Below, one piece after another: positions 37,795-57,952 of a stretch of 59,309 bases of DNA (the first letter of the stretch is position 1; each line of letters starts with the position of its first letter). The notes beneath the pieces are model-generated. The model was not told where the DNA came from and ran no database searches. It saw nothing but the letters and a program-made list of their open reading frames with translations. Position numbers and translations under genes: made by a program. The DNA comes from an uncultured virus (IMG/VR IMGVR_UViG_3300021256_000068) (taxonomy: Duplodnaviria > Heunggongvirae > Uroviricota > Caudoviricetes), in IMG/VR virus record IMGVR_UViG_3300021256_000068. One strand, written 5' to 3'.

Positions 37795-37823
37795 AAGGGT
37801 GTAAATGAAAGGGGAAATGAATT

Positions 37824-40408: not shown

Positions 40409-40412
40409 TTTT

Positions 40413-41486: not shown

Positions 41487-41789
41487 ATGGCAAAAACAAC
41501 TTGGAGTATGAATGACACTCAAAAGGCATTCTTAGGTGCATTATCTAATGGTGGTTTAACATTAGAGCAAATCAATAATGGTAGAGAAACTGAGATTAAG
41601 ACAGGCTCTATTAATACATTAATCGGTAAGGGTTATGTAACAACTGAAGATGCTGATTTCCCAGCAACTGAAACTTTAGTGGTTAAGTATCCCGACGGAA
41701 CTGAAATCACTAAGACTAAGGACAAGACTGTATCTCGTAAGGTCTATACCTTAACTGATAAGGCTAAAACTGAATTAGGGATTGAATAA
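41487..41789 (+). CDS. Winged-helix-like protein, paralog 1
   Basis: W.MN..QK.F..AL...IKTGSINTL..KGYV, long beta hairpin, RKVY.L; homologous to 42747, 46494 and 49487. Confidence 0.65.
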   Translation: MAKTTWSMNDTQKAFLGALSNGGLTLEQINNGRETEIKTGSINTLIGKGYVTTEDADFPATETLVVKYPDGTEITKTKDKTVSRKVYTLTDKAKTELGIE

Positions 41790-42250
41790 TCCCTAATCGG
41801 TTAAACCGATAAACTCAAACCCGACGGCATGCGTGTCGGCGGTAGCCGAAAGGACTAGGTTTCCTCCCCTTATGCCCTAGTCCGTTCGAGTACCACTGAC
41901 AATGGTATGTTCCGTTGAACCCGACGGAGTCACCAAAGGGCGTATACTTCTGCGAAAAGTAGGTTCTTATGAGATTTTTATTGCCAAAAATAAAAAACTC
42001 CATTGGTATGGTGCAACATACTTTCATCTTGCAGGTAAGTGCAAGAGGTCTTCAATTGATTTATGCGACTCCTTAATAAGTCAATGCCGCGAACCCGACG
42101 GTTGATCAAATCGGGTTGACTTGGCAGTTCATCCTTGGAATTGTCTGCTATACCAAAAGTGCAGGTTGACAGGTGGGAAAGTTGCCATCTGCTAAGGCAA
42201 AAGAGAGTGATTGCTGAAAGACCCGACGGACGCGTCGGTGTTTTTTCTTT
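41790..42250 (+). ncRNA. Putative structured RNA downstream of wHTH paralog 1
   Basis: No credible ORF; dense hairpins; shares elements with 43167-43750; ends in a terminator. Confidence 0.5.
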
Positions 42251-42505
42251 TCCCCTTGGGAACGTGGCGACCCGGCGGAAGCAAGCTGCGTAAACTTTCA
42301 GGCGGTTTCCGTCGGGTACGTGTTAAAAATGGGTCGTTCCGTCGGGTGAGTAAGTTTTGCCGCGTAATACGTTTCCGTCGGGTATCATTCCAAATTGGTC
42401 GTTTCCGTCGGGATACTATTATATTTATTTAGTTTAATAGGATTAAATAAAAAAAGAAAAATAAACAAAAGAAAAAAGATTTTTAAAAATTTTATAACTT
42501 TTTTA

Positions 42506-42717
42506 TTGACAATGTTTTTTAAAGTGATATAATGAAATTGTAAAGTTGAGATGACAAAAAATCTTAACTTGAAAAAAATTAAAAAAATTAAAAATATCAC
42601 TTGACATAAAAAATTAAAGTGATATAATAAATGTGTAAATAGATACAACGACTTAAAAATACTAGTTGAAAAAAGTTAAAAATATCTATTGACAAAGAAA
42701 ATCAGTTATGGTATAAT
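42506..42717 (+). promoter_or_regulatory. Three tandem sigma-A-type promoters
   Basis: TTGACA at 42506, 42601 and 42689, each with TATAAT. Confidence 0.85.
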
Positions 42718-42746
42718 AAAGATGTAAGTTGATAGGAGGTATAATT

Positions 42747-43166
42747 ATGGCAACTACACAAAAAACTACTACTACTACTCGTAAGGAATGGCAACCTAAC
42801 GAAAAACAAACTATGTTTATGAACGCTTTAAAGGTGCTAGGCACAGCAACTTTTAGAGTAATCAAGAATTATATTCTTGAAAATAACGGCGAAACTATCG
42901 CAACAGGCTCAGTCAATGTATTGACTACAAAGCAATATGTCGGCACAAGAGAAGAGTTGTTTGATGTTGAAACAACAACAACATATCACTACCCAACGGG
43001 CGATATTGTTGAAACTAAAAAGTCTAAAAAGACTGAAAAGGTTTACTTCTTAATCGCTGAAGCCGATAGACAAACATTTGCACAGACAAATGCAAAGGTC
43101 GATAAAAAGGACATCCCGGCGGAAGATGACCTAGATGAAGATGACCTAGTCGATATGGAAGATTAG
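42747..43166 (+). CDS. Winged-helix-like protein, paralog 2 (acidic tail)
   Basis: EWQPNEKQTMFMNAL...IATGSVNVL...EKVYFL; AGGAGG RBS. Confidence 0.65.
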   Translation: MATTQKTTTTTRKEWQPNEKQTMFMNALKVLGTATFRVIKNYILENNGETIATGSVNVLTTKQYVGTREELFDVETTTTYHYPTGDIVETKKSKKTEKVYFLIAEADRQTFAQTNAKVDKKDIPAEDDLDEDDLVDMED

Positions 43167-43750
43167 AAATAATCTTCCAGCCCTACGGGGTATGAGCAAA
43201 CCCGACGGAACAGGCTTAGGTTGGCAACCTATAAAGGTTTCCTATCAGGCGGGATAGTGCCTAACTATCTGGGAAGAATAGCCATTTCATACTTAAACGT
43301 TGCAAGAGTGCGGAAAGAATTAACTTGATACACTTATCGAAATACCCGACGGATTGGCAAACGCGAGTTGCTCGATAACTTAACGGCAATTAGTAATATT
43401 TCAGGGTTTCAATAGGCTAATGAAACTCGTCCTACCCGACGGAAGTCGGCGGTAGCGAAAAGGATTGGACTTCCCCTTTCCAATTCCTTTCGGTGCCGAC
43501 GGACACCAATTAAATACATACACAATACCTTAGACAAGTAGTTGTGCCGTTTTCGGTGGAGCGTCACCTTTATCGTAAAAATTAAAAAACGGGGTAGAGA
43601 GGGTGACCTACTAAAAAAATGCCTCGTATATGTTATGTACGAAAACCATAACGCCCATTCTGCGAAAGTGAATGCGGTTTCGGAGTACCGTTGAACCCGA
43701 CGGAGGGCACTAGAGAGTCTTGAAAAATCTAGTGCCTTTTGTGCTTTTAT
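43167..43750 (+). ncRNA. Putative structured RNA downstream of wHTH paralog 2
   Basis: No ORF; many hairpins; terminator GGCACTAGA...TCTAGTGCCTTTT. Confidence 0.5.
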
Positions 43751-44007
43751 TGTTTCCGTCGGGTTTGAACGTGGTCGCCGTTTTCAAGCAGGGCTTATAA
43801 ATTTTTAGGCGGTTTCCGTCGGGTAGTTCCTTTAATTGTGTTGTGCGGATTTCCGTCGGGTTTGGTTCTAATTCGAATTTCCGTCGGGTATTAATCATTT
43901 TTCGCCGCAACCGTCGGGTTAGCTTATTTACATTTTAATTTTTATATTGATTAAATAAATAAAAGAAAGAAATAAACAAAGAAAGAAAAAGTTTTTTATT
44001 TTTTCTA

Positions 44008-44214
44008 TTGACATACTAAAAATATTTGATATAATAAGTGTGTAAGTTGATAAAACAAACGACTTAAAAAATAATTTGAAAAAAATTAAAAATAATACTT
44101 GACATTAAAAATTAAAGTGTTATAATTAAGTTGTAAGTTGAAAACGACTTACAAAAAATAAAATTAAAAAAATTAAAAATTATACTTGACATTAAAAATC
44201 AGTTATGATATAAT
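44008..44214 (+). promoter_or_regulatory. Three tandem sigma-A-type promoters
   Basis: TTGACA at 44008, 44099 and 44186, each with TATAAT. Confidence 0.85.
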
Positions 44215-44245
44215 GAAAGTGTAAAAAGGAAAGGGTGTATTTATT

Positions 44246-45013
44246 ATGAATATCTGTGTATTTGATACTGAAACAGTAGGAAAGGTTAGTCAAGATTTAC
44301 TTAATGTAGGCTATAAAATCATTGACTTAAATGTGCAAAAAGGCACTTATGAAACTCTTGTAGAGCGTGATTATTTAGTGGGAAAACTATTTAATAACAC
44401 TATCTATATGATTAATGATGATTTTGTAGGTGCTGAAAAATACGGCAAGTATGTATTAGCATTAAAGCAAAAGAAAATCATTAAGCGTGGTATTTCTCAA
44501 ATTATGGAAACTATGAGAAATGACTTTAAAAAGCATAATGTATTATTTAGTTATGCTTATAATAACAAGTTTGATATGGATAAGTTTGAAAAAACTTGCA
44601 ATCAATTAGAGTGCGAAAATCCTATTAAAACTGCAACTTGCTTTGATATATGGGCTTATGCTTGTCAATATATTGTTGATACTCCTGAATATCAAGAATG
44701 GGCTAAAAATAACGAGGTATTTACTGAAAGTGGTGCTTATATCTCAACTAGCGTTGAAAGTGTAATTAAGTATTTAAACAACGATTTAGAGTTCGTTGAA
44801 GACCATACGGCATTAAGTGATGTGCAATGGGAAACAAAAATACTTGTGGAATGTGTAAAGCGTGGTTGTGATATTACAAGACCAATGCCATTAAAAAGAT
44901 ATTTCGCAAGTGAAAAAATAAATAAGAAAACTATCAAACTTCCCGACGGAAAAGAGATAGAAGTTGAATATCAAAAATCTTATGAAAGAAACGGGGTTAT
45001 CTCTTATAAGTAA
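44246..45013 (+). CDS. DEDDh 3'-5' exonuclease
   Basis: FDTET (Exo I), AYNNKFD (Exo II), HTALSD (Exo III). Confidence 0.85.
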   Translation: MNICVFDTETVGKVSQDLLNVGYKIIDLNVQKGTYETLVERDYLVGKLFNNTIYMINDDFVGAEKYGKYVLALKQKKIIKRGISQIMETMRNDFKKHNVLFSYAYNNKFDMDKFEKTCNQLECENPIKTATCFDIWAYACQYIVDTPEYQEWAKNNEVFTESGAYISTSVESVIKYLNNDLEFVEDHTALSDVQWETKILVECVKRGCDITRPMPLKRYFASEKINKKTIKLPDGKEIEVEYQKSYERNGVISYK

Positions 45014-45066
45014 GAGATAGCCCATACCCCTTCCCGACGGAAGTGGGCGGTTGAAAGGAGCAAATT

Positions 45067-45351
45067 ATGGAACAATTATTATGGGAATGTATTTATAAAA
45101 ATACAGATGATAATCAAATATATGCTGAAAGATTTGAGGCAACTAATGCAGTTAATGCACTATATCAACTATCACAATATCTTAATGATAAATGTGCTTT
45201 CGTACCATTAGGCGTAAAACCAATAATATGTAGTACAAACATTAGAAGTCTAAAATATGCTCGTTGGTTAAATGACGCTCGTAAGTTTCACAGTGATATT
45301 GAGGGAACAATAAGATATTATGAAAATGATTTAATCGGGGTTATTGAATAA
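45067..45351 (+). CDS. Hypothetical early protein
   Basis: AAAGGAG RBS. Confidence 0.65.
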   Translation: MEQLLWECIYKNTDDNQIYAERFEATNAVNALYQLSQYLNDKCAFVPLGVKPIICSTNIRSLKYARWLNDARKFHSDIEGTIRYYENDLIGVIE

Positions 45352-45373
45352 CCCCGACGGAAAGGAGAAAAAT

Positions 45374-45595
45374 ATGATAACTGTATATGTAGTAATTAAT
45401 TCACAAGATGGAGAAGTGCTTGGAGTATACCTTTCTGAAGATAGTGCAATAGGTGCTATCATACAATATGCTGTCGATAATAAACTTGATTTTTCAACAA
45501 GAACTTTTGAAAGAAGTGAATATGACCCAACTTATAGTTATGTTACAATAGATGGTTGCGAACATACTATTGTCGAAAGACAATTAATTAACTAA
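45374..45595 (+). CDS. Hypothetical early protein
   Basis: AAAGGAG RBS; VYVV...VLGVY.SE..A pattern common in small phage proteins. Confidence 0.65.
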   Translation: MITVYVVINSQDGEVLGVYLSEDSAIGAIIQYAVDNKLDFSTRTFERSEYDPTYSYVTIDGCEHTIVERQLIN

Positions 45596-46217
45596 CCCGA
45601 CGGTTAGTTTTTTCTTTTGGGCGGTTTCCGCCGGGTCTAATTTCAATAAGGTTTACCGCCTAAATTCCGTCGGGTCTTCCCCAAATATTATTAGTCATTT
45701 TCATCATTTTCACAAATTATATTCGTTATTTCATTCCATTTTTCGAATAATATTTTATTGTAAGCGTTTTCACATAATTTTTATTCAATTTTCAGTATTT
45801 TTCATTAATCCCACTTATCCGTCGGGTTGGCGCCGCACATCACAAACAAGTAAGCGTTTTCTGTCTTTTGCCGTTCCGTCGGGTGACATCATGAAAACGT
45901 TTTCAGTAAAGTTAGTCTTGACAAACTCTTTCTCCTAAATTCTTCTGCTTTTCTCCTATGTAAGCGCTTACAATGGGAGAAAACCGTGATTATCATCGTC
46001 CGCCGGGTAGAATGAAAACGTTTTCACTAATTTTCTCTTGACAGCGTCCGCCGGGTTTGTAGTGTTTTTTATTGCAGTACAAATCGGGGCTTGTTGACCG
46101 CGCTTTACGGACACTTGGTGAGGACACCAAAGGTGTCCGACCGTGGCGGACAGCAGCAGCAGCAGCTCGTAAACTTTCGCACAAAAATGAAAACGTTTTC
46201 ATAAAACCTGCAAAGTA

Positions 46218-46462
46218 TTGACAAAGCGCGCGAAAGGTTGTATAATATAAGTGTAATAAGGTAGAAGAAGTAATAATAAAACCTTGTTCGGCAATATCAT
46301 ACACGCGTTCGTGAGAAAATACAAAAATTAAAGTAAAAAAGTATTGACTTACCCCGCAAACTATGATATAATATAAGTGTAATAAGGTAGTAAGAGATAT
46401 AAAAAAATTAAAAAAATTAATTGAAAATATATCTTGACAGACCTTATGAATTGTGGTATAAT
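46218..46462 (+). promoter_or_regulatory. Three tandem sigma-A-type promoters
   Basis: TTGAC(A/T)-17-TATAAT at 46218, 46344 and 46434. Confidence 0.85.
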
Positions 46463-46493
46463 ATAATTGTAAAGGAAAGGTAAGGTAATAATT

Positions 46494-46769
46494 ATGGCAC
46501 AAAAGACATGGACAATGAATGAAACTCAAAAGGATTTTATGGACACTTTAAAGGAAATGGGTAGAGCCGTAACTTTAATGGAAATCGAAGCAGTAACTGG
46601 TAAGGCTTTCAAGACTGGTACTATCAACACATTAGTAGCTAAGGAATTAGTAAAGACTGAAGATGTTGATTTAACTTACACTGAAACTAGAACTTTCAAG
46701 TTCGGCGATAAGGAAACTACTTTAACTGCAACTAAGACTATCACTCGTAAGGCTTACAGATTAGCCTAG
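46494..46769 (+). CDS. Winged-helix-like protein, paralog 3
   Basis: MAQKTWTMNETQKDF...FKTGTINTLVAKELV...RKAYRL. Confidence 0.7.
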   Translation: MAQKTWTMNETQKDFMDTLKEMGRAVTLMEIEAVTGKAFKTGTINTLVAKELVKTEDVDLTYTETRTFKFGDKETTLTATKTITRKAYRLA

Positions 46770-47528
46770 TCCTCTTGGCTTTAAGGAAACCGACACGCCA
46801 CTAAACAACGGAACCTTTACTATTCGCTCATGCTGGAGGCAATAGTTCATATACATCTAGCAATATCTAGGGAACAGTAATGTTCCCTTTTTTCTATTGC
46901 CAAAATGTTGGTCCGTCGGGTGATAAACAAATAAAATTCAGGTTTTTCCATTATTTTTCTAATTTTATTCGTATGAAAACGTTTTCATCAAAATTTTATT
47001 GTAAATTGATTCCTTTTGACCGAATTTTGTTCGTTTTTGCATCATTTTCATTATTTTCACCACATTTTATGCGCATGAACCCGACTTTTCGCCGCAATCA
47101 CACAATAATTTGAAACATTTTGCATATTATAACTTAAAAGCAGCTGTAATTTGCAGGTTTTTAGTAAAAATTTTGGGTTTCATCTGGGACCGAGGCGCGC
47201 ATTTTACGGGGCAATTTCTAGTCATTGCGAGTGAAATAACATTGCGATCCTTTTCTATTCACTGTGGAGTGTTTTCTAAATATCACACGTAAACGCTAAA
47301 AATGGCAGGAGAAAAAGAAAATGCGGGAAAAGTGAAGAAATTTTACGGATTTTTGAAAATTTTGTTGACAAACACGTAAACTTTGGCGCACGTGTATACC
47401 ACTCCCCTAGTCAATATTTCTTGATATTCCAATATTTTTCCCTAAAATCATCAATTTTTCATTGACAAACAGCAAAAACTAATATATAATAATATTGTAA
47501 TAAGATAAAGGAGATAAAGAAAATAATT

Positions 47529-47756
47529 ATGGAAAAGAAGGTCTATCAAGTCAGATATTCAATCAAAGATAAAGAAACCAAAAGAGTAAAAACTAGACGT
47601 ATCTATAATGTAATGGCAACAGACCTAAAAGATATAGAAGACATATTGCAAGAAAAATGGTTTATGTATGAAATAGAGATAAATGATGTATTGAATGAAT
47701 GGAGTTTAGAAGAGTACATCAAAGCAAAAGATAATACAGTATTGGTATATAGATAG
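47529..47756 (+). CDS. Hypothetical early protein
   Basis: Promoter at 47462; TAG stop. Confidence 0.65.
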   Translation: MEKKVYQVRYSIKDKETKRVKTRRIYNVMATDLKDIEDILQEKWFMYEIEINDVLNEWSLEEYIKAKDNTVLVYR

Positions 47757-47815
47757 GAAAGAAAGGAAAGCCGAAGCGGAGGTCCTCAGACCGAAGCGGA
47801 GGCGTGGTAATACAA

Positions 47816-48157
47816 ATGAAACAAAAATATATGAGAGTAGAATTAGGAACTGGATATTGCGGCGAGGATTCAGTACAATACTACAAGTTAGCGGATCAAA
47901 ACCAGATTGAACCAACCCAACAAGATTGGGAACGTTATCAAGAAATGGCATTAGACCATAATGAAAGTTATGGTCGTGAATTTGCTGATTGGTGTGAAGA
48001 ACACGATTTAGACCCAGATGAAGATAATGGTGAATATTGGGATGAATATGCAATCCATTGTGCTGAACACGGCTACATTGAAATCATTGAAGCAGACCCA
48101 GAAGATGAAGATGATTCAACATTTGATGATGGTTTTTTAGAGGATTGTGAATGGTGA
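47816..48157 (+). CDS. Highly acidic small protein (ends at TGA; 3 more codons if read through)
   Basis: D/E-rich with spaced aromatic residues; GGAGG upstream. Confidence 0.7.
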   Translation: MKQKYMRVELGTGYCGEDSVQYYKLADQNQIEPTQQDWERYQEMALDHNESYGREFADWCEEHDLDPDEDNGEYWDEYAIHCAEHGYIEIIEADPEDEDDSTFDDGFLEDCEW

Positions 48158-48275
48158 GCGGCGTAAAATCTTATTGATAATAAAGCAATTTTTATTGACA
48201 AACACCAGATTTTATAATATAATATAATTGTAAAAGATAAGATAAATATATTATTTATTTTAATGGAGGTTAGTT

Positions 48276-48626
48276 ATGGCAGACTATAATGAAATTTACA
48301 ATCGTATGCAATTTAATATTGAGTATACTGCAACGGAACTTAATGTTAGCGGAGCAACTATGACTGCTATGGCTAATCGAGGATTGGTAAGAAAAATTGC
48401 GGCGAAACCTTGCCGTTATGCGAAGATTGAAAACAAGATGGCAAAAATTATGGATATCGTAAAACAATTTGCAGACAAAGAATACTTCACTCTATTCAGG
48501 AGAGAAGAGAAGTTAGGTATGTTTTGCCGAATTAAGGCTGGTTGCATTGTAGATGCTTGGGATAAAGCTTATGATGTTAGTAATGTTTATAAAGTAAAAA
48601 TTGCAAATAAGGAGTTTGATGTATAA
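48276..48626 (+). CDS. Putative winged-helix-like protein
   Basis: YTATEL...SGATMTAMANRGLVRK; GGAGG RBS; promoter at 48195. Confidence 0.55.
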   Translation: MADYNEIYNRMQFNIEYTATELNVSGATMTAMANRGLVRKIAAKPCRYAKIENKMAKIMDIVKQFADKEYFTLFRREEKLGMFCRIKAGCIVDAWDKAYDVSNVYKVKIANKEFDV

Positions 48627-48862
48627 TGGAATTTAATTGGGCACAATTATTTATTGACTTCTCTCAAGGATTAGTTGAGGTAGCACAAGAAATGAATGAA
48701 GAACTAATTGGCTTAGTTAATGCGGCGAATTGTGATGCTAATTGCGATAAAATTATTGCTAAGGCAAGTCAATTAGATACTGATATGGATAGAATATTGA
48801 ATTTTGTAGAAAAATTTTACAAGGAAAGAGGGCTTAAAGATGTCAAGACAATGGGAAAATAA
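48626..48862 (+). CDS. Hypothetical protein
   Basis: TAATG coupling; AAGGAG RBS. Confidence 0.65.
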   Translation: MEFNWAQLFIDFSQGLVEVAQEMNEELIGLVNAANCDANCDKIIAKASQLDTDMDRILNFVEKFYKERGLKDVKTMGK

Positions 48863-49223
48863 GTTACATTTTGGTGGTAATTATAGTTTGTATCAAAGTT
48901 GCGGCGAAATGAGTGTTTATAAAAACCCAGAATTCGACCATTTGACTTTTAATCCAGATGAATATGCTAACGAAGCTAGTATGTGGGAAGATATAGCGAT
49001 TTTACAAAAAATGTTATTACGTAGTGGCAATGTTATTCGTGTTCGTCAAGAGGAACAATTAGTAATAGTTGAATGGACTTATGACAATAGTAGAGAGTAC
49101 TTTGGTGGAACTCATTTAGAATTCTTAACAGAAGACGAAATAGATTTAATTGATAGAATGCGTCAAGAAGATTGCGCCGCAATCCAAGATGCATTGAAGC
49201 CAAAGTTAATTGAATCCGAATAA
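48840..49223 (+). CDS. Hypothetical protein
   Basis: GAGG RBS; overlaps the previous gene. Confidence 0.65.
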   Translation: MSRQWENKLHFGGNYSLYQSCGEMSVYKNPEFDHLTFNPDEYANEASMWEDIAILQKMLLRSGNVIRVRQEEQLVIVEWTYDNSREYFGGTHLEFLTEDEIDLIDRMRQEDCAAIQDALKPKLIESE

Positions 49224-49486
49224 AAAATCACATAATTTATTCAAAAATTCGTTGACAAAGGCGAGAAATTATTATATAATATAGTTGTAAAGATAAAGAG
49301 AGAAATAATAGTTTTAACAACATCGGATGTTAGACAAGAACAAATCAAAGTATGAGACCCGTGTTGACCAAAAGAGTGGTTGGGTGTTAACAAATGAAAG
49401 TTTAAAACTACTTGATTTATCTTGACATAAAGTAGTACAAGCAAAGCGGCGAACCCGCAAAGAAAGGATTAATAGGTGGAACTATT

Positions 49487-49981
49487 ATGGCAAACAAGAC
49501 ATCAGAAAGAAAGATTACAGAAACTGACAACTTAATCGTTGCAGCATTAAAGAACGCCGGTACAGCGTTAACATTCGCTCAATTAAAGGAATTAATTACT
49601 TTACCTACAGGTAAGCCATTAGCGGCTGCACACATCACTCACGCTTTAACAATGGGTTTAATTGTTAAGGGAGATGAAGTAGAGGTTGAAGTAACTCGTA
49701 AGGCAAAGCGTTCAACTTATGTTTATGTTAATTCAGACGTAGCAAAGAAAGCGGACGGAAAGCCATTCAATTACAATGAAAAAGAATTAGCAATCTTAAA
49801 GTATGCTGAAACTGCTGATGGTGCATTCACTATTGCAGGTTTAAATGAAGCTTTAGGAACTGATTACAAGCCAGGTACATTCACTGCATTAGTTAATAAG
49901 GGTAATTTAGCTAAGGGCGAAGATGTTGAATACGATAAGGCAACAAGAGAAAAGAAAGCAACTTATTTCGTAGCTGAATAG
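49487..49981 (+). CDS. Tandem winged-helix-like protein, paralog 4
   Basis: Two repeats of helix...T...L..KG(D/E)(E/D)VE...YxY/YF, related to 41487 and 46494. Confidence 0.6.
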   Translation: MANKTSERKITETDNLIVAALKNAGTALTFAQLKELITLPTGKPLAAAHITHALTMGLIVKGDEVEVEVTRKAKRSTYVYVNSDVAKKADGKPFNYNEKELAILKYAETADGAFTIAGLNEALGTDYKPGTFTALVNKGNLAKGEDVEYDKATREKKATYFVAE

Positions 49982-49984
49982 TCA

Positions 49985-50445
49985 AATAGTTGCGGCGAAA
50001 ACTCGTTCATAATGACCAATAAGGGTAATGTCTTTAAACTTTCCCTAGGCGTATAAAAATGAGTTTTAAAACTAAATGCCGAAGAATAACTCAACTTTGA
50101 CAAACAACCGAATGAAAGTAATGTTGTAAAACTATCTTTTATTCAAAGAAAGAATGAATTCAAATTATCTTTCAAGCAAAGTAAGCCAAATACTTTTGAG
50201 GCAAGGACTCATTCGTTAATTAGGCGTTGGTACTTGTAGGTAAAGCCAATCAAAACTACCTTCTGATTTAGTAATTATTACGCAAATTACGTGACTTAGT
50301 TCAGTTCAATAGTAATTGAAATCGTGCGATAACACTTATCACGAACTCTATGAAGTGTGATGCGTTCACTGCTAAAGTGTGATAGACCTAGTAAAGTGAG
50401 TAAGGATTTCCGCTAACTGAAAATTTTACTAGGTTTTTTCTGCTT
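49985..50445 (+). ncRNA. Putative structured RNA downstream of wHTH paralog 4
   Basis: No ORF of 60 aa or more; hairpins; ends ACCTAGTAAA...TTTACTAGGTTTTTT. Confidence 0.4.
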
Positions 50446-50834
50446 GAAAAAGATGAGCGGCGATAAAAATCATTGATATCAATACTTTGGTATTAAAATG
50501 GCATTTTGTACGGAAGGCTTTAGATGTCACGTTGGAACGTTCGAAATTGGAATGAATAGAGTTATCTATTCGTCGATACTGCGCGGCAAGCCGCTTGTAT
50601 CTTACTTATATCTAACTGCCTCGCTGCGCTCGGCGTAATAATTTTTTATAAAGATAATGATTTTGGATAGACAATGAAAATTTAAAATAAATCAAGAAAA
50701 AATCATTCTAAGAAGGAAAAATTACTTAGCTTTATATGTGTTATAGAACACTTTTTTAACAAAAGCCTAATTTTATCGGATCTTTTCTTGACACTTACTA
50801 AAAAACATACTATATTAATTGTAGAGGTGATAAA

Positions 50835-51488
50835 GTGAGTAGTATTATAGTGAATGATGTAGCACTACAAACAAATAATAAATATTTAATCTTAACAGAT
50901 AAGGAACTGTTTACACCGAGTACTGAGTTTATATACTATTGTATTTGATATCGTTTTAGTTTAAAAGAACACACTTTTAACATCACTCGTAGTCTAAAAC
51001 AAAAGAGTGCTTTTATATCTTACGAAATAACAGATAGATTCGATAAAGAAATTGCTGAGTATTGCGGCGAAATTCAATGGCGTACCCTTTGTAAACATCT
51101 AAATATCTATAAGGAAAAGAGATACGAAGATAAAAAGGGAGACTTTTTATTGGTGATACCTTTTCCTATTGTGGATTATGTTATACAAACAATAATGAAG
51201 TGCGGACTAAAACCACAAGCTTGAAGTGGTCTTTTTAGAGAATGGTGTTATTATTGAATGTCATGCCATGCTGCGAATGGTATTGCTAGAATTACACAAG
51301 ATGGCGGCGCAAAAAAGATTGGTGTCACAAAGCGAATTTTTAATGATGCAACTTTAAATTTAATAAAACTAGGTTTGATTGAAAGACATGGAAAATTTCG
51401 TTTTGGTGTAGATTATTCATATGGTTATTCTTATAAAATACCAGATTCTATATTAGAATTAAGTGAAAATGATTGAGATTTAGAATAA
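50835..51488 (+). CDS. C-terminal HTH protein, possibly replication-related (4 TGA=Trp)
   Basis: GAGGTG RBS and GTG start; TGA at 50946, 51222, 51255 and 51474; ITQDGGAKKIGVTKRIF...LIKLGLIER. Confidence 0.65.
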
Positions 51489-51590
51489 AATTCATTGAAA
51501 TTTTTTAATGAGATTAGTTAATTATATATTGACAAAATGAAGAAAATACTATATAATATAATTGTAATAATAGGAAAGGAATAAAATTAT

Positions 51591-51890
51591 ATGATAAGAA
51601 AGACAGTTGAAATTGATTTAACAGGTGAATATTATGCAGTTCAAAATATACAAATAGATTCTGCTGGAGGTATTAATGTAAATCCTATAGTTGCAAAAAA
51701 TTACTACGCAGAAGCCGATAATTATATTAAGGATAAAATTGTACAATTACAAATTATGTATGGAAAAGATAATGTTATTTTTAGTTTTGACCCAGTAAAG
51801 AAGAGATATACAGTAAAAGTTTCATATGATGCAGAAGTGGCTAAGGGTAGTTTTATTGTTATTTATGCCATCACAAAACTTTATCTATAA
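51591..51890 (+). CDS. Hypothetical protein
   Basis: Own promoter (51529) and RBS. Confidence 0.65.
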   Translation: MIRKTVEIDLTGEYYAVQNIQIDSAGGINVNPIVAKNYYAEADNYIKDKIVQLQIMYGKDNVIFSFDPVKKRYTVKVSYDAEVAKGSFIVIYAITKLYL

Positions 51891-51984
51891 AATTTAAAAT
51901 CTTATTGACAAAGAGTAAAAAGTATTATATAATATAATTGTAAAAGATAGATAGAGAATATATGATTTTTAAAGGAGGATTAGT

Positions 51985-52191
51985 ATGACAGTATATAATA
52001 GTTATAACAGAATAGTTGCTTTTGAAGGTTCTTATCAAGAGTGCTTAGATTGGATGTTCAATCAGGCTGACTCATTAGGTAACGGTGCGAAGTTATATCG
52101 TACTTGGACTGACGAGAATGGAGATACATTCTATGATGTCGGTAGAGTTTATATCTTCAACGGTAAGCCTGAAAATAATACTAAAAATTAG
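51985..52191 (+). CDS. Hypothetical protein
   Basis: Own promoter (51905); AAGGAGG RBS. Confidence 0.7.
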   Translation: MTVYNSYNRIVAFEGSYQECLDWMFNQADSLGNGAKLYRTWTDENGDTFYDVGRVYIFNGKPENNTKN

Positions 52192-52291
52192 TTAAAATCT
52201 TATTGACAAAGTATGAAAAATACTATATAATATAATTGTAAAAGATAAGATAAAGATATTATTTTATTTATCTAGGAAAGGATTGGGTTTT

Positions 52292-52603
52292 ATGGAAAAT
52301 AGAGAATTAATTAATTGTGTTGTAAATACAACTATTGACTTCTTACGTGAAAATTACAGAGGTTTAAATAGTGAATTCTATTGTGAAGTTGAAGATGTTA
52401 ATTATGGATATGATGAAGGCGATTATAATGATGCATATGTAACAGTTAAATGTAGATGCGGTCGTTATAGAGAAGGCGGAGATAAAGATTACAACTTCAA
52501 TTATGACTTCACTTTAAGTGATGTTCAAGATAAATCTGCTGACTTTATTGCTGGTATGATTCATGTTATCTTAGCAGTAAAGATGGACTTCTATGACATT
52601 TAA
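52292..52603 (+). CDS. Acidic hypothetical protein
   Basis: Own promoter (52203) and RBS. Confidence 0.65.
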   Translation: MENRELINCVVNTTIDFLRENYRGLNSEFYCEVEDVNYGYDEGDYNDAYVTVKCRCGRYREGGDKDYNFNYDFTLSDVQDKSADFIAGMIHVILAVKMDFYDI

Positions 52604-52664
52604 AAATTATTGAAAATAAGTTAAAAACTTATTGACAAAACCTGAAAAGTATTATATAATATAA

Positions 52665-53365
52665 TTGTAAAAGATAAGATAAAATATTTATTTTAAAGTG
52701 AGAAACCTTATGGGTTGAAACAAAACTACGGGTTCGTTCTCACAAGTGCCATATCTAGGGACGGAGTTGCAACTTAAAGTCGAAAGATAGCCCGAAGGCA
52801 ATGAAAAGAGTGTTGGGTTATGGCTAAAAAATATTTTAAAAATTATCTAAAAACTTATTGACAAACCATACAAAGTATTGTATAATATAAATACAATAAG
52901 TTAATAAAGAATAAAAGAATTAATGTTAAGACGAACAATCGAACGGAGTGATCGACCACGATTGAGAGGTTCGTGCTGGAGTGACAGTCTTCGGAAAGTG
53001 AGTGAAGAATAGAGTTTCCCATCTCTAGAAAAATGCCGACATAAGAAATACTCATGGGGTCGGATAAAATCAACCAAAAACATTATTACTTTTATTCAAA
53101 AACTTATTGACAAAGTCTAAAACTTATTATATAATATTTATGTAATAAGATAAAGAAAAATAAAAAATTATTTGAGGAACAGCTCCCACTCAGGCGTATA
53201 CCCCTCGTTAAAAAACAAAGAAGATGAGCGTTAGTCCACGACACGGACAACTTAATGGCAATGGTAACTCTAAGGCGGAGTTCTAGGATGGCAACCTGTA
53301 AGACCTTATCTCGTTATTGAGATGGCAAAAGACTTAGTCCTGCTGATGTTAGCGGCGCCACTTCC
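52665..53365 (+). ncRNA. Series of short promoter-driven putative ncRNAs
   Basis: Promoters at 52632, 52858 and 53107, each followed by GC-richer hairpin-forming sequence with no RBS-led ORF. Confidence 0.45.
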
Positions 53366-53370
53366 TATAT

Positions 53371-53448
53371 GCCCGATTAGTCGAACCGGTCAAGACACCA
53401 CCCTTTCAAGGTCGGAGATCGAGGGTTCAACTCCCTCCTCGGGTACCA
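53371..53448 (+). tRNA. tRNA-Glu (TTC), with one bulged base in the anticodon stem
   Basis: GCCCGA/TCGGGT acceptor; CCACC-CTTTCAA-GGT(C)GG; GAGGG-TTCAACT-CCCTC; encoded CCA. Confidence 0.8.
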
Positions 53449-53601
53449 AATAAAAATCAATGGAGAAAATCTAACATTGCGGCGGCAAATCGAACGACAC
53501 TCCTTAACAACGGTATGCGAGCAAAACACGCAATTAATTATTCCTTCATAAAAATTGGTTCTAAGGTTTACACCCTCCTTTCATTACCTTAGAACCCACA
53601 T

Positions 53602-53678
53602 TGCAGTTGAGTGAAACGGATAATCATACAAGGCTCATACCCTCGTGATAATGGGTTCGACTCCCATAACTGCGTCCA
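53602..53678 (+). tRNA. tRNA with CAT anticodon (Met/fMet; Ile2 not excluded)
   Basis: TGCAGTT/AACTGCG acceptor; CTCATAC loop; ATGGG-TTCGACT-CCCAT; encoded CCA. Confidence 0.85.
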
Positions 53679-54057
53679 AATGGCGGACCAAGTTGGTTAG
53701 TTTCCAGTGCAAATCTGGTTTTCGTCCCAAAACACCCACGCGGCACTAATCAGAGGTGCTAAGCAAAAGACGTCAAAACGTGAATTGATGTGCCGCACCC
53801 TTTCCTAAATAGGAACAAGTTAGGCTAAGACTTGTAAAATGAAGTATGGCTAGGTAGGTAACCCGAATGACACCGAAAAAAATCTTTGAAAATAATGTAA
53901 AAGTTATTGACAAAGTGCATAAGATATTATATAATATATATGTAATAAGATAAAGAGAATAAATAAAAAATTATTTCAAAGTTAGGCGAGTTAAAAAGTT
54001 TTTGAATAAATGAAAAAACTTATTGACAAAACCTAAAAAGTATGATATAATATATAT

Positions 54058-56586
54058 GTAAGGAACAAAAGAGAAATAATTATCTGAACTCTGAAGCGAG
54101 TGTTCGAGCACCTCCTCTCGAATGCTCTCTTGAGAGTTCAGCTAACTCTCCCATCTCATTCAAGATGGTCGGAAGATTCCAATCGCAAGACGCCAGTTCT
54201 CGGACTTCGGTCGTGGACACAATGCGATTAATAAATGATTGACGGACTCCGAGATATACCTATAGCAGGTTGAATAGAAATAAACCGTGCCGATACCTCT
54301 TCTCGTTACGAGGTAGGGACTCCAACACTTCCTTTATCCAACTGTTGGTTGACTTAAAACACCCACTAAGTGAACAGGGTATGGGCTAGTCTGACCAATA
54401 AGTCCACTTTGAGGTTCATAGTTTTCCAAAACTAATAAAAACTATTGCGTTAGTTGATACGATAGGAAACTCGTGGTAGGTACTGGGCGGGAAGTTACAA
54501 GGTTTGTTAGACCGATAACCCACTAAAACCTTTAAGTTGTAGTTGCTTATAAAACTGCTAATAGGAACTAAGGTACTTTATGTAAGTTTGCACTTAGTTA
54601 CCGAAAATGATAAAAACTGCCGTAGAACGTGCTTGGTAATTGCTCTAACTACGAGATAATACTCTTAGAGTATAAAACACTGGTAATTATCACACGCAGG
54701 TTACCGATTAGCGTGTCTAAAATTGGAAGTTCCAAGTAAATAGATTGGTCGGCGTCTGTTTCGTATTTCACAACGTCGTGAGTTTAAGACAAATTGTCGC
54801 AAAGCAAGAGTTCTTAACTAAAATTCCTTAGGTAGCTTAAGCTCTTCACATCAAAAATGAAGCGATGGTATGTAGTTTTCTATGATTGTTCAAGTTCTAC
54901 ATCAAAACCAAAACTGAACTCAATTACACGTACAACATAAAGGCGTTTGATTGACGTGTATAAATAAAGGGATGCCGCAAACTATCTTGCGAAAGACCTT
55001 ATCGGCTAGTAATAAGATTTGTCGTGATATGATACGGAAGAGATAAGGTTGCCTCCAAACTGGGAGGGATAACAAATGCAGTAAGGTTGAGTAATATTAA
55101 ATTATTGCGAGCAATTGGCTGGTTGTGGCGTATCCACAATAAAAGTATCCAGTTTCAATCCCTTTAACACGTGGGCGTAGTGGACCACCACCGTGACCTG
55201 TGCGGTCAGGGCGTAGATGAGATATTCACTTCTATCCGTAGTAGATATTCTTTCGTTACAATAAACTCGAGTTTAAAAATGTAAAGTTCTCGAAAAAACT
55301 TTCATGGTTGAGGAAACCTTCCCTACTTGCACTAGGGCATCAACATTCCGATGGCGATTATTAGAGCCTTGAATACTAATTGTGCGGCAACCATTGAACG
55401 AGGAACGCAGACCTTGCGAGATGGGCGATATGCTGGCGACACCTGAGTGGCGGGCGTCCACTTGACATTTTGAGCATTTTTGTTTCAATAGGAAAAACAA
55501 AACCGTGGTCTGCACGAAAAAAAGATGGTTTTTATAATATGTTTACCAATAAACGTATGAGCTTTCCGTTGTTTCCTGAAATAAACAATGTGGCGTTGTA
55601 AGTTTGAACAGAGAGAACTTTCAGTCTACCACACACTTAGCGGTGGGAACCTTGAGAGTGATAATGGGAACTCTTCGTATGACACGTACATCATTGACTT
55701 TCATAAGTTCAACAGGAACTCTATAGTGGCATATGACACTATCTTCTAAAAACCCTCAATGCGATGCGATGCATTCGAAGCCTCTCCATTGAGCCCCACC
55801 CGACTGCGAGAGATACAACGCTGTCTAGATGCTGACGCCGTGCTTTGACGGTGGCAAGTTGGGTACATAATCGGGGTTAGTTGTGGCAACTAGGAAAGCC
55901 ACACAGACTGTTCTCAATAAGAAAAGGGACACGTACCATAGGTGCGTAGCGAAAGCGTGCTGGTGCAAATCCAGTCAGTCTAATGATAAAAAGAACCATT
56001 CATTATATTTGGTCAGTGAGAGAACACTAAAAACACATTTGGAGTCAATTCTAAGATAAGTCTCGACTCGTTAATAAACAAAACTTATCGACAGTAATAC
56101 GTTGGCGGAGTATGTAGGTGTACGCAGCATGAGAGTATAATCAGTTAAAAGCTAACTCTACGGGATTATACCACCTCTCCATAACGGTGACCCGAAGCAA
56201 GAGAGCGACGACCCATCCCTAACTCTTCCGTATTATGACAGTGCTGGGGCAGGCAAGACCTGGGACGCACGAACTTCTGACTACTCGAAAGGAAGTAGTA
56301 ACCGTCATACTGCGGGTCCAGCAGTCACTGACACTCGCCATAGGATACCTTTTATACGCCGTGTCCCCAAATGGCAAATTAACGGTCAAGTAGCATAAAC
56401 CTGTGACCACATAAACTAAGTATGCCGAACGGTTTGATTAGCCTTCGTTAATATAGTAATTAGTAACTGATACAATCACTTAGCGATTGTTCCGAACACC
56501 TTCGGGGTTCGAGAGGTCAGTAATTTTCACTGAGTTTGATAACCGTAAAATAATACTCAGCGTCCGTGCAATACGGACTTTTTTTA
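54058..56586 (+). ncRNA. About 2.5 kb putative structured non-coding transcript(s)
   Basis: Tandem promoters at 53907 and 54023; no plus-strand ORF of 60 aa or more; raised GC; hairpins and pseudoknots; terminator at the end. Confidence 0.6.
56562..56586 (+). terminator. Intrinsic terminator
   Basis: GTCCGT-GCAAT-ACGGAC-TTTTTTT. Confidence 0.85.
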
Positions 56587-56828
56587 TGCCTTGAATTGAA
56601 AGCGGAAAAACACTTCGGACCGTGGCGCCGAACCTCGATTACGCCGCGTAAACTTTTGGGCATAAAAATTTATGTTTAAGTAAAATTTCGCACGGTTTCC
56701 TTTACTTAAAAGTGACTAAGCCGATTTTAAGTAAAAGAAACGGTTATTATTCGCGGACTTATTTAAAAAATCATTGACAAAAGGAAAAAGATAATATATA
56801 ATATTAATATAAAGAAAAGAGGTACAAA

Positions 56829-57374
56829 ATGAATAAGTTTTTCGCACATTTAAAAACAATAAAAATTCATAGAAAAGCCGTTAGGCATTTTTGCTTTAAA
56901 ATGGGGATACCATTACAGGGATTACTGCACGACTTATCGAAGTATTCTATAACAGAGTTAAGTCAATATAAATACTACACTGGCAAGCATAGTCCTCACG
57001 AAGAAATGAGAAATAAAATAGGATATTCTAATTCTTGGTATCATCATAGAAATAAAAATAAACATCATTGGGAATACTGGATCGATTCGCTCGAAAGAGG
57101 AACTGCGGTAAAAATGCCATATAAGTATGTTATTGAGATGTTGTGCGATATGTGCGCGGCAGGATATGCTTATAATGGTAAAAATTGGCAACCAAAAGAT
57201 GTTTTAGAGTATTGGGTAAAGCATAGCGGATCTCATCGCATTATCAATCCAGCAACAATCGGACTTTACACTGTTTTATTAAAGAATTTAAGCGATTTTA
57301 ATGATTTTGATAAGTTCGCTGATTGGTATAAAGGTGCAAAGGATTCTTTGAAAGCTTGGTATAAAAAACAATAA
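56829..57374 (+). CDS. HD-like metal-binding protein (DUF5662-like)
   Basis: H...H, HDLSKY, HH..NKHHWEYW and MP.KY..EMLCD motifs. Confidence 0.75.
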   Translation: MNKFFAHLKTIKIHRKAVRHFCFKMGIPLQGLLHDLSKYSITELSQYKYYTGKHSPHEEMRNKIGYSNSWYHHRNKNKHHWEYWIDSLERGTAVKMPYKYVIEMLCDMCAAGYAYNGKNWQPKDVLEYWVKHSGSHRIINPATIGLYTVLLKNLSDFNDFDKFADWYKGAKDSLKAWYKKQ

Positions 57375-57951: not shown

Positions 57952-57952
57952 A

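What the first reader, a model, noticed from the sequence alone, without database searches (positions are those of the whole stretch)
41841..54348. Multiple hairpins display anti-Shine-Dalgarno loops
Seen: 54084-54141 is a long stem whose loop is exactly CACCTCCT, the 16S anti-SD, and is the first structure after its promoter. 53557-53596 is an 11-bp stem with loop ...CACCCTCCTTTC... The 41841-41894 loop contains TTCCTCCCC. 43471-43480 (TTCCCCTTTC) is the exact complement of the GAAAGGGGAA RBS at 37807, 38971 and 40111. 53796-53806 complements AGGAAAGGGTG at 41435 and 44227. The 54322-54348 loop contains CTTCCTTT. Established: C-rich loops of Firmicutes sRNAs such as RNAIII block ribosome binding sites. 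Inference: a phage sRNA set that occludes host SD sequences broadly and/or switches off its own early genes.
Basis: partly seen in the sequence, partly recalled or inferred. Interest (0 to 1): 0.75.

Follow-up and report, generated by a model that had tools for sequence, protein, structure and literature searches.

The report
Phage RNA hairpins mimicking the ribosome's docking tail
An uncultured rumen phage places copies of the ribosome's mRNA-docking sequence, or exact mirror images of its own ribosome-binding sites, in the open loops of four very stable RNA hairpins inside heavily promoted non-coding transcripts, so it probably uses RNA to interfere with the start of translation, although no transcript or effect has yet been measured.

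Summary
Four are robust, two are not.

**Robust hairpins** (folding z -3.5 to -7; loops 0.93-1.0 unpaired):
- B2, 54080-54145, loop CACCUCCU
- B1, 53557-53596, loop UUACACCCUCCUUUCAUU
- A1, 41836-41899
- A2, 43450-43498

**Not supported:** 53796-53806 is mostly paired. 54322-54348 folds no better than shuffled sequence.

**More than chance:** an objective census finds 18 strong hairpins on the early strand. Only these four have loops built from complements of the Shine-Dalgarno (SD) words enriched before the phage's own genes. Such loops occur in 16 of 2193 control hairpins.

**Context differs from "an sRNA set":**
- A1 and A2 lie in long 3'UTRs of paralogous early genes behind 5 and 3 tandem consensus promoters.
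- B1 is the spacer between two tRNAs.
- B2 opens a ~2.5 kb non-coding unit. Its 3' part is better conserved than the neighbouring gene, and it matches no Rfam family.

**Conservation:** the A1 loop is kept in two relatives (one U-to-C change in one of them). A2 is missing from one relative. No relative covering B1 or B2 was found.

**Function:** trans-acting anti-SD pairing is the best reading (about 0.4).

The parts
54080..54145 (+). Hairpin B2: about 25 paired positions; 8-nt loop CACCUCCU at 54109-54116; starts about 22 nt after the predicted transcript start
   Evidence: -34.4 kcal/mol, z -6.95; inverted repeat I2; loop 0.99 unpaired; scores 8
53557..53596 (+). Hairpin B1: 11-bp stem; 18-nt loop UUACACCCUCCUUUCAUU (53568-53585); ends 5 nt before tRNA-Met
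   Evidence: z -5.3; 0.97-0.99 unpaired; scores 9; tRNA positions
41836..41899 (+). Hairpin A1: three stacked helices; 16-nt loop UUUCCUCCCCUUAUGC (41860-41875); in the 3'UTR of gene 41487-41789
   Evidence: -28.2, z -4.4; 0.93 unpaired; loop identical in L169 and one U-to-C change in L044
43450..43498 (+). Hairpin A2, a paralogue of A1: loop CUUCCCCUU (43470-43478); 43471-43480 is the exact complement of GAAAGGGGAA; in the 3'UTR of gene 42747-43166
   Evidence: -23.5, z -3.5; 1.0 unpaired; top three targets; absent from L044
53796..53806 (+). CACCCUUUCCU, exact complement of AGGAAAGGGTG at 41435 and 44227, but mostly base-paired; not accepted as a displayed loop
   Evidence: sequence; z -0.65; 0.20 unpaired
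54322..54348 (+). Weak 6-bp hairpin whose loop holds CUUCCUUU; not better than shuffled sequence
   Evidence: z -0.45; 0.68 unpaired
52632..54051 (+). Five perfect 12-of-12 sigma-70-type promoters (52632-52660, 52858-52886, 53107-53135, 53907-53935, 54023-54051) with no protein gene behind them
   Evidence: repeat families D1-D5
53371..53448 (+). tRNA-Glu (UUC)
53602..53678 (+). tRNA with CAU anticodon (called Met)
54058..56590 (+). Predicted ~2.5 kb non-coding transcription unit, from the start after promoter 54023-54051 to the intrinsic terminator 56562-56578 plus T-run; G+C 38-43% against about 30% elsewhere
   Evidence: 31-61 stops in every frame, of all three kinds; no Rfam match at E<=10
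56189..56360 (+). Near-invariant core of the 3' part of the long RNA in three phages whose neighbouring gene is only 76-84% identical
   Evidence: (109 predicted pairs, 4 with compensatory changes)
37807..37816 (+). GAAAGGGGAA ribosome-binding site of gene 37824-38123; the same word stands at 38971-38980 and 40111-40120; predicted targets of A2, A1 and B1
   Evidence: kept at the three orthologous genes of L044
41030..41423 (+). Five tandem perfect promoters in front of gene 41487-41789, whose 3'UTR (41790-42245) carries A1 and ends at terminator 42223-42238
42506..42717 (+). Three tandem perfect promoters in front of gene 42747-43166, whose 3'UTR (43167 to about 43752) carries A2 and ends at hairpin 43706-43736 plus T-rich tail
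   Evidence: terminator read from the sequence

Best explanation
The four hairpins are RNA structures in very strongly promoted non-coding parts of the early region of a large, uncultured rumen phage that probably infects Firmicutes. Each holds an anti-Shine-Dalgarno (anti-SD) sequence in a fully open loop on a rigid stem.

Most likely they act in trans as seed loops. The loop pairs with the SD region of an mRNA, competes with the 30S subunit and so lowers translation initiation. This is the principle of the C-rich-loop regulators RNAIII, RsaE and the cuckoo RNAs.

Two sub-types are inferred:
- A1 and A2 ride on the 3'UTRs of the most heavily promoted early genes. They are matched to the phage's own unusual GAAAGGGGAA ribosome-binding site on three other early genes. 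This suggests shut-off of those genes once the 3'UTR-bearing messages accumulate.
- B1 would be released from the tRNA-Glu/tRNA-Met spacer by tRNA processing. B2 is the 5' end of the 2.5 kb RNA. Both carry 8-9 letters of the 16S tail itself and so could pair with almost any strong SD. B1's extra C makes it a better partner than the ribosome for the phage's G-rich early sites.

Shown: structure, openness, non-random loop content, promoter and terminator context, complementarity.
Inferred: that the RNAs accumulate, that they pair in vivo, and that pairing represses.
For: - Stability and openness.
- Non-random loop content: 4 of 18 early-strand hairpins against 16 of 2193 controls; the two best against 1 of 2193; 0 of 2129 controls by the tail test; P 0.0029 under the most conservative shuffle. 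No other hairpin on the transcribed strand has such a loop.
- Structure selected at the RNA level: A1 and A2 are paralogues whose inner helix differs at three positions by double compensatory changes. GGACUAGG/CCUAGUCC becomes GGAUUGGA/UCCAAUUC, while both loops stay C-rich (sequences).
- The orthologues in L044 and L169 keep the helices through G-U/G-C exchanges. L169 keeps the A1 loop letter for letter although its sequence diverges completely a few bases downstream.
- Targets: the three best A2 partners among 56 gene starts are the three GAAAGGGGAA sites (-12.4 kcal/mol each). B1 binds +44246 at -17.1 against -10.3 for the ribosomal tail, and the three G4 sites at about -14.5 against -12.1. 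The G4 sites are conserved in L044.
- Expression context: perfect promoters and terminators. 12 RNA runs from 6 studies hold 27-57% of the sampled words of 52600-56800.
- Principle established for Firmicutes and Alphaproteobacteria: passages read in PMC2790875 and PMC4615179.
Against: - No relative covering B1 or B2 was found, so their loops have no conservation test.
- A2 is absent from the one relative that covers its site.
- In that relative the A1 loop reads CCCCCCC instead of CCUCCCC, so the CCUCC word itself is not fixed.
- Complementarity to the phage's upstream regions in general is not above chance.
- B2's 8-nt loop binds no gene start better than the ribosome's tail does. A closed 8-nt loop can form only a short helix.
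- A general SD competitor would have to rival the number of ribosomes.
- A1 and A2 pair poorly with their own messages' start regions (-8.0 for A1 with +41487).
Confidence: 0.4

Rival explanations
1. Mimics (decoys) of the 16S rRNA 3' tail. B1 and B2 copy the tail itself rather than just a C-rich seed. They would titrate something that recognises that tail, such as an anti-SD-cutting endoribonuclease toxin of a host abortive-infection or toxin-antitoxin system, or a tail-binding ribosomal protein or maturation factor. That would protect ribosomes or reprogram initiation.
For: B1 and B2 share 9 and 8 consecutive letters with the tail. Both lengths are at or beyond anything among about 2100 control hairpins. 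MazF-mt3 cuts 16S rRNA in the anti-SD sequence and MazF-ec removes the tail (passages of PMC5408214). The hairpins sit in a tRNA-bearing, multi-promoter non-coding unit, a place where phages keep translation-related RNAs.
Against: In the ribosome the tail is a free 3' end, not a hairpin loop. A1 and A2 are not tail copies, yet fit the phage's own ribosome-binding site exactly, which a decoy model does not explain. No toxin, antitoxin or tandem-repeat architecture of the type III antitoxin kind is present. The host is unknown.
Confidence: 0.12
2. Structural or processing elements whose loop sequence has no role in SD pairing. Candidates are a 5' stabiliser or RNase III site (B2), a tRNA-precursor leader hairpin (B1), 3'UTR stabilisers (A1, A2), or loops that make tertiary, kissing or protein contacts within the large RNAs.
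For: B2 is at the very 5' end of its transcript and B1 directly precedes a tRNA. The paper read says 5' hairpins stabilise RNAs in Bacillus and Staphylococcus. The long RNA is conserved and partly covarying, so it has a function of its own. A2 is dispensable in a relative.
Against: This does not explain why exactly the four strongest G+C-containing hairpins, and none of the other 14, carry SD-complementary loops. It also does not explain why A2 matches a phage-specific ribosome-binding site over 10 nt. The only internal GGAGG-type partner in the long RNA (55059-55066) is already paired locally with 55050-55054.
Confidence: 0.28
3. Chance, or a DNA-level feature such as cruciforms, protein sites, or ribosome-binding sites for genes on the opposite strand.
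For: Only four elements. The liberal complementarity test is not significant. CCTCC occurs just 5 times on this strand of 35900-59309, which by my own rough estimate (no call) is not far above the count expected from base composition.
Against: Control rates are 16 of 2193 and 1 of 2193 and 0 of 2129. Compensatory changes keep the RNA helices. Read on the minus strand, the SD-like words are not followed by a start codon at a usable distance, and no consensus promoter faces that way.
Confidence: 0.06

Closest known systems
C-rich (UCCC) loop regulators of Firmicutes: Staphylococcus aureus RNAIII, RsaE/RoxS and other Rsa RNAs (PMC2790875, passages read)
   Same: Unpaired C-rich motif shown in hairpin loops. 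It pairs with the SD of target mRNAs and blocks the initiation complex. Several unrelated RNAs carry the same signature. A 5' hairpin plus terminator architecture is common.
   Different: - No sequence or covariance-model match.
- Here the carrier is a phage, and the loops sit in 3'UTRs, a tRNA spacer and a 2.5 kb RNA.
- Two loops copy 8-9 letters of the 16S tail rather than a 4-letter UCCC seed.
- No experiment exists.
Cuckoo RNAs (RSs0680/CcsR1-4, NfeR1) of Alphaproteobacteria (PMC4615179, abstract and passages)
   Same: Variable stems presenting a conserved anti-SD loop motif (CCUCCUCCC). The stems vary while the loop motif is kept.
   Different: Cuckoo RNAs are 2-4 adjacent hairpins in one small RNA, all with the same 9-nt motif, in a different phylum. 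Here the hairpins are hundreds to thousands of bases apart, the loops differ, and no Rfam family matched.
icaR mRNA of S. aureus: 3'UTR anti-SD motif pairing with the SD (recalled; seen only as a mention in an earlier finding)
   Same: A C-rich anti-SD motif carried in the 3'UTR of a protein-coding message, as for A1 and A2.
   Different: icaR acts on its own 5'UTR. A1 and A2 fit their own start regions poorly and fit three other early genes best.
ROOL and GOLLD large RNAs (PMC5737381, passages; bioRxiv 10.1101/2024.12.08.627333, listing and start of abstract only)
   Same: Large non-coding RNAs of phages and prophages, often next to tRNAs and possibly co-transcribed with them. ROOL was first found in rumen data. 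This is the same setting as the 54058-56590 RNA.
   Different: No match to either Rfam model even at E<=10. This unit is about 2.5 kb against 581 nt for ROOL. Local folding energy is not unusual. Only the last ~400 nt could be compared across relatives.
tRNA-spacer-derived regulators (3'ETS of leuZ in E. coli) and the stable RNAs C and D in the phage T4 tRNA cluster (both recalled; no paper read)
   Same: Functional or stable small RNAs released from tRNA precursors by tRNA processing, as proposed for the 153-nt spacer that carries B1.
   Different: The E. coli spacer sponges sRNAs, not SD sequences. The T4 RNAs have no known function and no anti-SD loop that I know of.

Membership tests
C-rich/UCCC-loop translational repressor sRNAs (RNAIII, RsaE class) | Unpaired C-rich motif in a hairpin loop or other single-stranded region | tested here: met
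   Loops UUUCCUCCCCUUAUGC, CUUCCCCUU, UUACACCCUCCUUUCAUU and CACCUCCU; 0.93-1.0 unpaired
C-rich/UCCC-loop translational repressor sRNAs (RNAIII, RsaE class) | Accumulates as a stable RNA | tested here: inconclusive
   Consensus promoters and terminators. 12 RNA runs of 6 studies hold 27-57% of the words of 52600-56800. Nothing was tested for 41790-43750.
C-rich/UCCC-loop translational repressor sRNAs (RNAIII, RsaE class) | Pairs with the SD of target mRNAs and blocks the initiation complex | not testable with these tools
   In silico duplexes only
C-rich/UCCC-loop translational repressor sRNAs (RNAIII, RsaE class) | Homology to a described family (Rfam models) | tested here: not met
   No match at gathering score in the window, nor at E<=10 in 41700-44300 and 52500-57000
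Cuckoo RNA family | 2 to 4 adjacent hairpins, each loop carrying CCUCCUCCC | tested here: not met
   Hairpins lie 1.6 kb (A1 to A2) and 0.5 kb (B1 to B2) apart, loops differ, and none holds CCUCCUCCC
ROOL / GOLLD large RNAs | Match to the family covariance model (conserved multistem junctions and pseudoknots) | tested here: not met
   cmscan of 52500-57000 at E<=10 lists neither family
ROOL / GOLLD large RNAs | Phage or prophage setting next to tRNA genes | tested here: met
   tRNA-Glu and tRNA-Met lie 380-690 nt upstream on the same strand. Phage structural genes are in the window.
icaR-type 3'UTR anti-SD acting on its own 5'UTR | The 3'UTR motif pairs with the SD of the same mRNA | tested here: not met
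   A1 with +41487 gives -8.0 kcal/mol, close to the A1 mean over all 56 starts (-7.8). +42747 is not among the six best partners of A2. The best partners of both are other genes.
Type III antitoxin / pseudo-ToxI decoy RNA | Tandem direct repeats of a short unit that is the toxin's substrate | tested here: not met
   No such repeats in 52600-56800; the direct repeats found are the promoters

The most novel reading that the evidence does not exclude
The phage carries an rRNA-operon-like non-coding unit at 52632-56590: five promoters, two tRNAs, a conserved 2.5 kb RNA and one terminator. Its products include hairpin-mounted copies of the 16S rRNA 3' tail. Together with 3'UTR hairpins tuned to a phage-private ribosome-binding site, this would form a dedicated RNA system that rewires translation initiation during infection. 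It could work by competing with ribosomes for SD sequences in a class-specific way, or by decoying host factors or toxins aimed at the anti-SD tail. The 2.5 kb RNA would then be a new class of giant phage RNA.
Probability: 0.15. Interest if true: 0.85.

Novelty: new variant of a known kind. Interest (0 to 1): 0.62.

Why it matters
Regulation by C-rich or anti-SD loops is established for bacterial sRNAs. My searches found no paper describing phage-encoded anti-SD hairpins: one search returned 21 papers with all four terms, 15 were listed, and none was on this; searches added none.

If these loops work as proposed, a phage could time or bias translation with RNA alone. It would use a private ribosome-binding-site variant plus its exact RNA complement, and tRNA processing to release a regulator.

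The same stretch also exposes a ~2.5 kb non-coding RNA candidate. It is conserved, lies next to tRNAs, matches no Rfam family, and its DNA words occur in rumen metatranscriptome assemblies. That bears on the open question of what giant phage RNAs such as ROOL and GOLLD are for.

All of this can be tested directly with toeprinting, reporters and stranded RNA reads.

Tried and rejected
**Identity of the non-coding stretches**
- Known RNA families: none apart from the two tRNAs. Related loci also show no known large RNAs.
- Hidden coding under other genetic codes: 54060-56590 has 31-61 stops in every frame, of all three kinds.
- "Giant RNA is thermodynamically unusual": not supported. Mean z is -0.22 on the + strand and -0.05 on the - strand; only the B2 window stands out at -4.1.
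- CRISPR-like or tandem repeats in 52600-56800: none; the direct repeats are the promoters.

**Relatives of B1 and B2: none found**
- INPHARED, near and distant modes: only tRNA pieces hit.
- IMG/VR by flanking proteins and by patterns.
- GTDB genomes.
- The 79 kb relative G001 ends at about window position 49743.
- The MAG that holds L169.
- Metagenome contigs L060 and L061 start only at 56189 and 56114.
- Spurious-ORF protein searches.
- L146, L147 and most of the 73 genome loci from the array pattern are chance hits in G+C-rich DNA.

**Other tests**
There is therefore no depth, strand or end information.
- Complementarity of loops to any part of the upstream regions: not above chance.
- Opposite-strand ribosome-binding-site reading: rejected.
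- Anti-SD loops as a general trait of phages sharing the DUF5662 gene: not seen, 0 of 2129 control hairpins.
- The 13-tRNA cluster of the same phage (L059) has no such hairpin.
- Complex prediction was not used because no protein-protein claim is made.

Full report
**What the window is**

The window is A+T-rich DNA (about 30% G+C) from a tailed phage. Tape-measure, portal and virion proteins lie on the minus strand of 1-35500.

From 35900 onward, small genes lie on the plus strand behind many perfect TTGACA-N16/17-TATAAT promoters. There are 34 on the plus strand between 37674 and 58970, and 27 perfect 12-of-12 matches in 41000-59309 alone.

No close relative is in INPHARED. The portal is only about 24% identical to those of 130-165 kb Bacillus and Mammaliicoccus siphophages, so a Firmicute host is likely.

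Near-identical DNA occurs in sheep, goat and other gut (rumen-type) metagenomes.

**The observation**

All six strings are at the stated places. Four hairpins are real:

| Hairpin | Span | Energy (kcal/mol) | z | Loop |
|---|---|---|---|---|
| B2 | 54080-54145 | -34.4 | -6.95 | CACCUCCU |
| B1 | 53557-53596 | -15.3 | -5.3 | UUACACCCUCCUUUCAUU |
| A1 | 41836-41899 | -28.2 | -4.4 | UUUCCUCCCCUUAUGC |
| A2 | 43450-43498 | -23.5 | -3.5 | CUUCCCCUU |

Folded inside 150-1000-nt transcript contexts, the four loops stay 0.93-1.0 unpaired.

The other two items fail. The stretch around 53796-53806 folds no better than shuffles (z -0.65) and is 0.20 unpaired. The 54322-54348 hairpin has z -0.45.

**Is it more than chance?**

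I made a rule-based census: stem of at least 9 pairs, at least 4 G-C pairs, at most 2 G-U pairs, at most one mismatch, loop of 4-20 nt. It finds 18 non-overlapping hairpins on the plus strand of 35900-59309.

- B1 and B2 share 9 and 8 consecutive letters with the tail. A1 shares 5, A2 shares 4, and the rest share 4 or fewer.
- Shuffling each loop's own letters, which keeps its pyrimidine richness, gives two such loops in 0.29% of 200,000 trials.
- In 1.55 Mb of unrelated phage and metagenome loci, both strands, 0 of 2129 hairpins reach 8 and 4 reach 7.

*Recall-free repeat.* Because the tail is recalled, I derived the signal from the window itself. The twelve 5-mers most enriched at -20..-4 before 56 gene starts are AGGGG, GAGGT, GGAGG, AGGAG, AGGTG, AAGGG, AAGGA, AAAGG, AGAGG, GAAAG, GGTGA and GGAAA.
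- Loops made of unbroken chains of their complements score 9 (B1), 8 (B2), 6 (A1) and 6 (A2).
- The other 14 loops score 0.
- Among 2193 control hairpins, 16 score 6 or more and 1 scores 8.

On the whole window, both strands, no other hairpin on a transcribed strand has such a loop.

*A result against.* If any perfect complement to any part of the 17-nt upstream windows is counted, the signal disappears (3 loops at 8 or more; about 13% of shuffles do as well). A/T-rich loops match A/T-rich spacers. The signal is therefore specific to the SD core.

**Where the hairpins sit**

They are not free-standing small RNA genes.

*A1 and A2.*
- A1 lies in the 456-nt 3'UTR of gene 41487-41789. Five tandem perfect promoters (41030-41423) precede the gene, and terminator 42223-42238 ends the unit.
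- A2 lies in the ~580-nt 3'UTR of the paralogous gene 42747-43166, which sits behind three tandem promoters.
- The two hairpins are paralogues.
- Their inner helix differs by three double compensatory changes. GGACUAGG/CCUAGUCC becomes GGAUUGGA/UCCAAUUC. This is read from the sequences; the MAFFT alignment misplaces the 3' half, so the count is by eye.

*B1.* It fills the 3' end of the 153-nt spacer between tRNA-Glu (53371-53448) and a CAU-anticodon tRNA (53602-53678). It ends 5 nt before the latter, so tRNA processing would release it.

*B2.* It begins about 22 nt after the predicted start of the transcript from promoter 54023-54051.
- No protein can be read for the next 2.5 kb: 31-61 stops per frame, of all three kinds.
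- No promoter or terminator of consensus quality intervenes until the terminator at 56562-56578.
- The four promoters upstream (52632, 52858, 53107, 53907) also have no gene behind them and no terminator. The whole of 52632-56590 may therefore be one multi-promoter non-coding unit that contains the two tRNAs.

**The long RNA**

- G+C is 38-43% against about 30% for the rest of the window.
- No Rfam family matches even at E<=10. That includes ROOL, GOLLD, group II introns and rRNA.
- Two metagenome contigs of related phages, L060 and L061, begin inside it at 56189 and 56114.
  - Their neighbouring DUF5662 gene is 84% and 77% identical in protein.
  - Yet 56189-56360 is almost invariant.
- RNAalifold on the last ~400 nt predicts 109 pairs, 4 of them with compensatory double changes.
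- Against a highly ordered structure: the local folding energy of the 2.5 kb is not below that of shuffled sequence, except at B2.
- 12 RNA runs from 6 studies hold 27-57% of the sampled words of 52600-56800. Which part, which strand and how much RNA remain unknown.

**Conservation of the hairpins**

- The 79 kb IMG/VR fragment G001 (locus L044) is 80-88% identical over 35900-46500.
  - It keeps A1 with the loop UUUCCCCCCCUUAUGC, one U-to-C change that removes CCUCC but keeps the C-run and CCCCUU.
  - Its helix changes are only G-U/G-C exchanges.
  - It lacks A2, which sits in a ~340-nt insertion bounded by copies of ACCCGACGG.
- Contig L169, from a rumen MAG and most likely a mis-binned phage contig, keeps A1 with an identical loop. 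It then diverges completely after the next ACCCGACGG.
- For B1 and B2 no relative was found in any collection I could still query.

**Targets**

- The three genes 37824, 38987 and 40127 each stand directly behind a promoter. They share the unusual site GAAAGGGGAA, which is kept in G001.
- 43471-43480 is its exact 10-nt complement.
- With the 9-nt loop alone, those three sites are the three best A2 partners among 56 gene starts, at -12.4 kcal/mol each.
- B1, whose loop has one more C than the ribosomal tail, is predicted to bind the G-rich early sites better than the tail does:
  - +44246: -17.1 against -10.3.
  - The two sites +37824 and +38987: -14.5 against -12.1.
  - +40127: -13.8 against -11.8.
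- B2 beats the tail nowhere.
- A1 and A2 fit their own messages poorly, so an icaR-like self-acting circuit is unlikely.

**Mechanism**

The best reading (about 0.4) is trans-acting anti-SD pairing of the RNAIII/RsaE/cuckoo kind (passages). It has two parts:
- A phage-private circuit: G4 ribosome-binding sites and their 3'UTR-borne complements.
- Two general tail-like loops made together with the tRNAs.

Rivals:
- Structural or processing roles with incidental loops (0.28). Positions at a 5' end and before a tRNA favour this. The specificity of loop content argues against it.
- Decoys of the 16S tail for anti-SD-directed toxins or tail-binding factors (0.12). MazF-type enzymes do cut there, but the loop context and the A1/A2 hairpins do not fit.
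- Chance or DNA-level features (0.06).

**Comparison and novelty**

The principle is known. Membership in any described family fails: there is no Rfam match, and the cuckoo architecture is not met.

New here:
- The phage origin.
- Placement in 3'UTRs, a tRNA spacer and a giant RNA.
- Copying of the tail itself.
- Pairing of a private ribosome-binding-site variant with its exact complement.

Earlier notes of this scan describe similar hairpins in other phages, some inside tRNA clusters. They are unchecked AI notes and I did not test them.

**Verdict**

The surrounding non-coding operon and its 2.5 kb RNA deserve attention in their own right.

Noticed in passing
window 37238-46913: The 8-mer CCCGACGG (21 copies) and its reverse complement CCGTCGGG (29 copies) occur only in this 10 kb. 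Each early transcription unit ends with three parts: an ACCCGACGG-containing terminator; a long hairpin ACCCGACGGAACGTGGCG...GGCGGTTTCCGTCGGGT; and 1-5 further copies of TTCCGTCGGGT at about 30-bp spacing, just upstream of the next promoter cluster. The motif is kept in relative G001 while the spacers vary. It marks the borders of insertions and deletions between relatives. This may be a protein-binding array, an RNase III or insulator cassette, or a recombination cassette like the promoter-stem-loops of T4-type phages (recalled).
   Followed up: partly
window 41487-41789, 42747-43166, 46494-46769: Three paralogous small proteins with no Pfam or PHROG match sit behind 5, 3 and 3 tandem consensus promoters. 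The AlphaFold model (pLDDT 82, six-sequence alignment) weakly resembles PadR/LmrR-type winged-helix DNA-binding regulators (Foldseek E about 3e-3, TM 0.5-0.58). They may bind the CCGTCGGG arrays; this was not tested.
   Followed up: partly
window 54058-56590: A ~2.5 kb promoter-to-terminator unit without any open frame and with no Rfam match. Its 3' core (56189-56360) is nearly invariant in phages whose flanking gene is 76-84% identical. It is a candidate new giant phage RNA next to tRNAs.
   Followed up: partly
window 37674-44214 versus 47462-58998: There are two flavours of perfect promoter. The first is often tandem, with a TG-extended -10 and a 16-17 spacer. The second has a conserved AAAACTTATTGACAAA upstream part, a 17 spacer and a shared purine-rich transcript start (GTAA[A/T]AGATAAGATAAAGA). 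They may be two temporal classes.
   Followed up: no
window 37700-37735, 38868-38900, 41065-41090, 41146-41180, 44127-44155 and others: Transcripts from the upstream members of the tandem promoters would begin with a small hairpin GUAAGU-loop-ACUUAC followed by an A-run, with no gene before the next promoter. Some loops are SD-like (GAAAGCGAAAG).
   Followed up: no
window, all gene starts (list): By eye, many minus-strand (late) genes use (A)GAGGT(G)-type ribosome-binding sites. The first genes of the early units use GAAAGG(G/A)G-type sites. The split is not absolute.
   Followed up: no
L059 8408-10769 (same phage, 97% identical; continues past the window's right end): A cluster of 13 tRNA genes lies a few kb beyond the window. 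The phage therefore carries at least 15 tRNAs.
   Followed up: partly
window 38987-39439: An early gene with an NT5C-type 5'-deoxynucleotidase domain (Pfam PF06941, E 1.7e-8).
   Followed up: no
window 49982-51257 and 7890-9365: Two further stretches of 1.3-1.5 kb have no open frame of 70 codons or more. They were not examined.
   Followed up: no
L007 17084-17307 (unrelated phage contig sharing only the DUF5662 gene): Rfam RT-2 RNA match (127 bits).
   Followed up: no
L070 4862-6431 and 13719-16214: A distant relative by the DUF5662 gene (51% identity) also has 1.6 and 2.5 kb stretches without open frames. They contain no tRNA and no Rfam match. No sequence similarity to the window's long RNA was detected.
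   Followed up: partly
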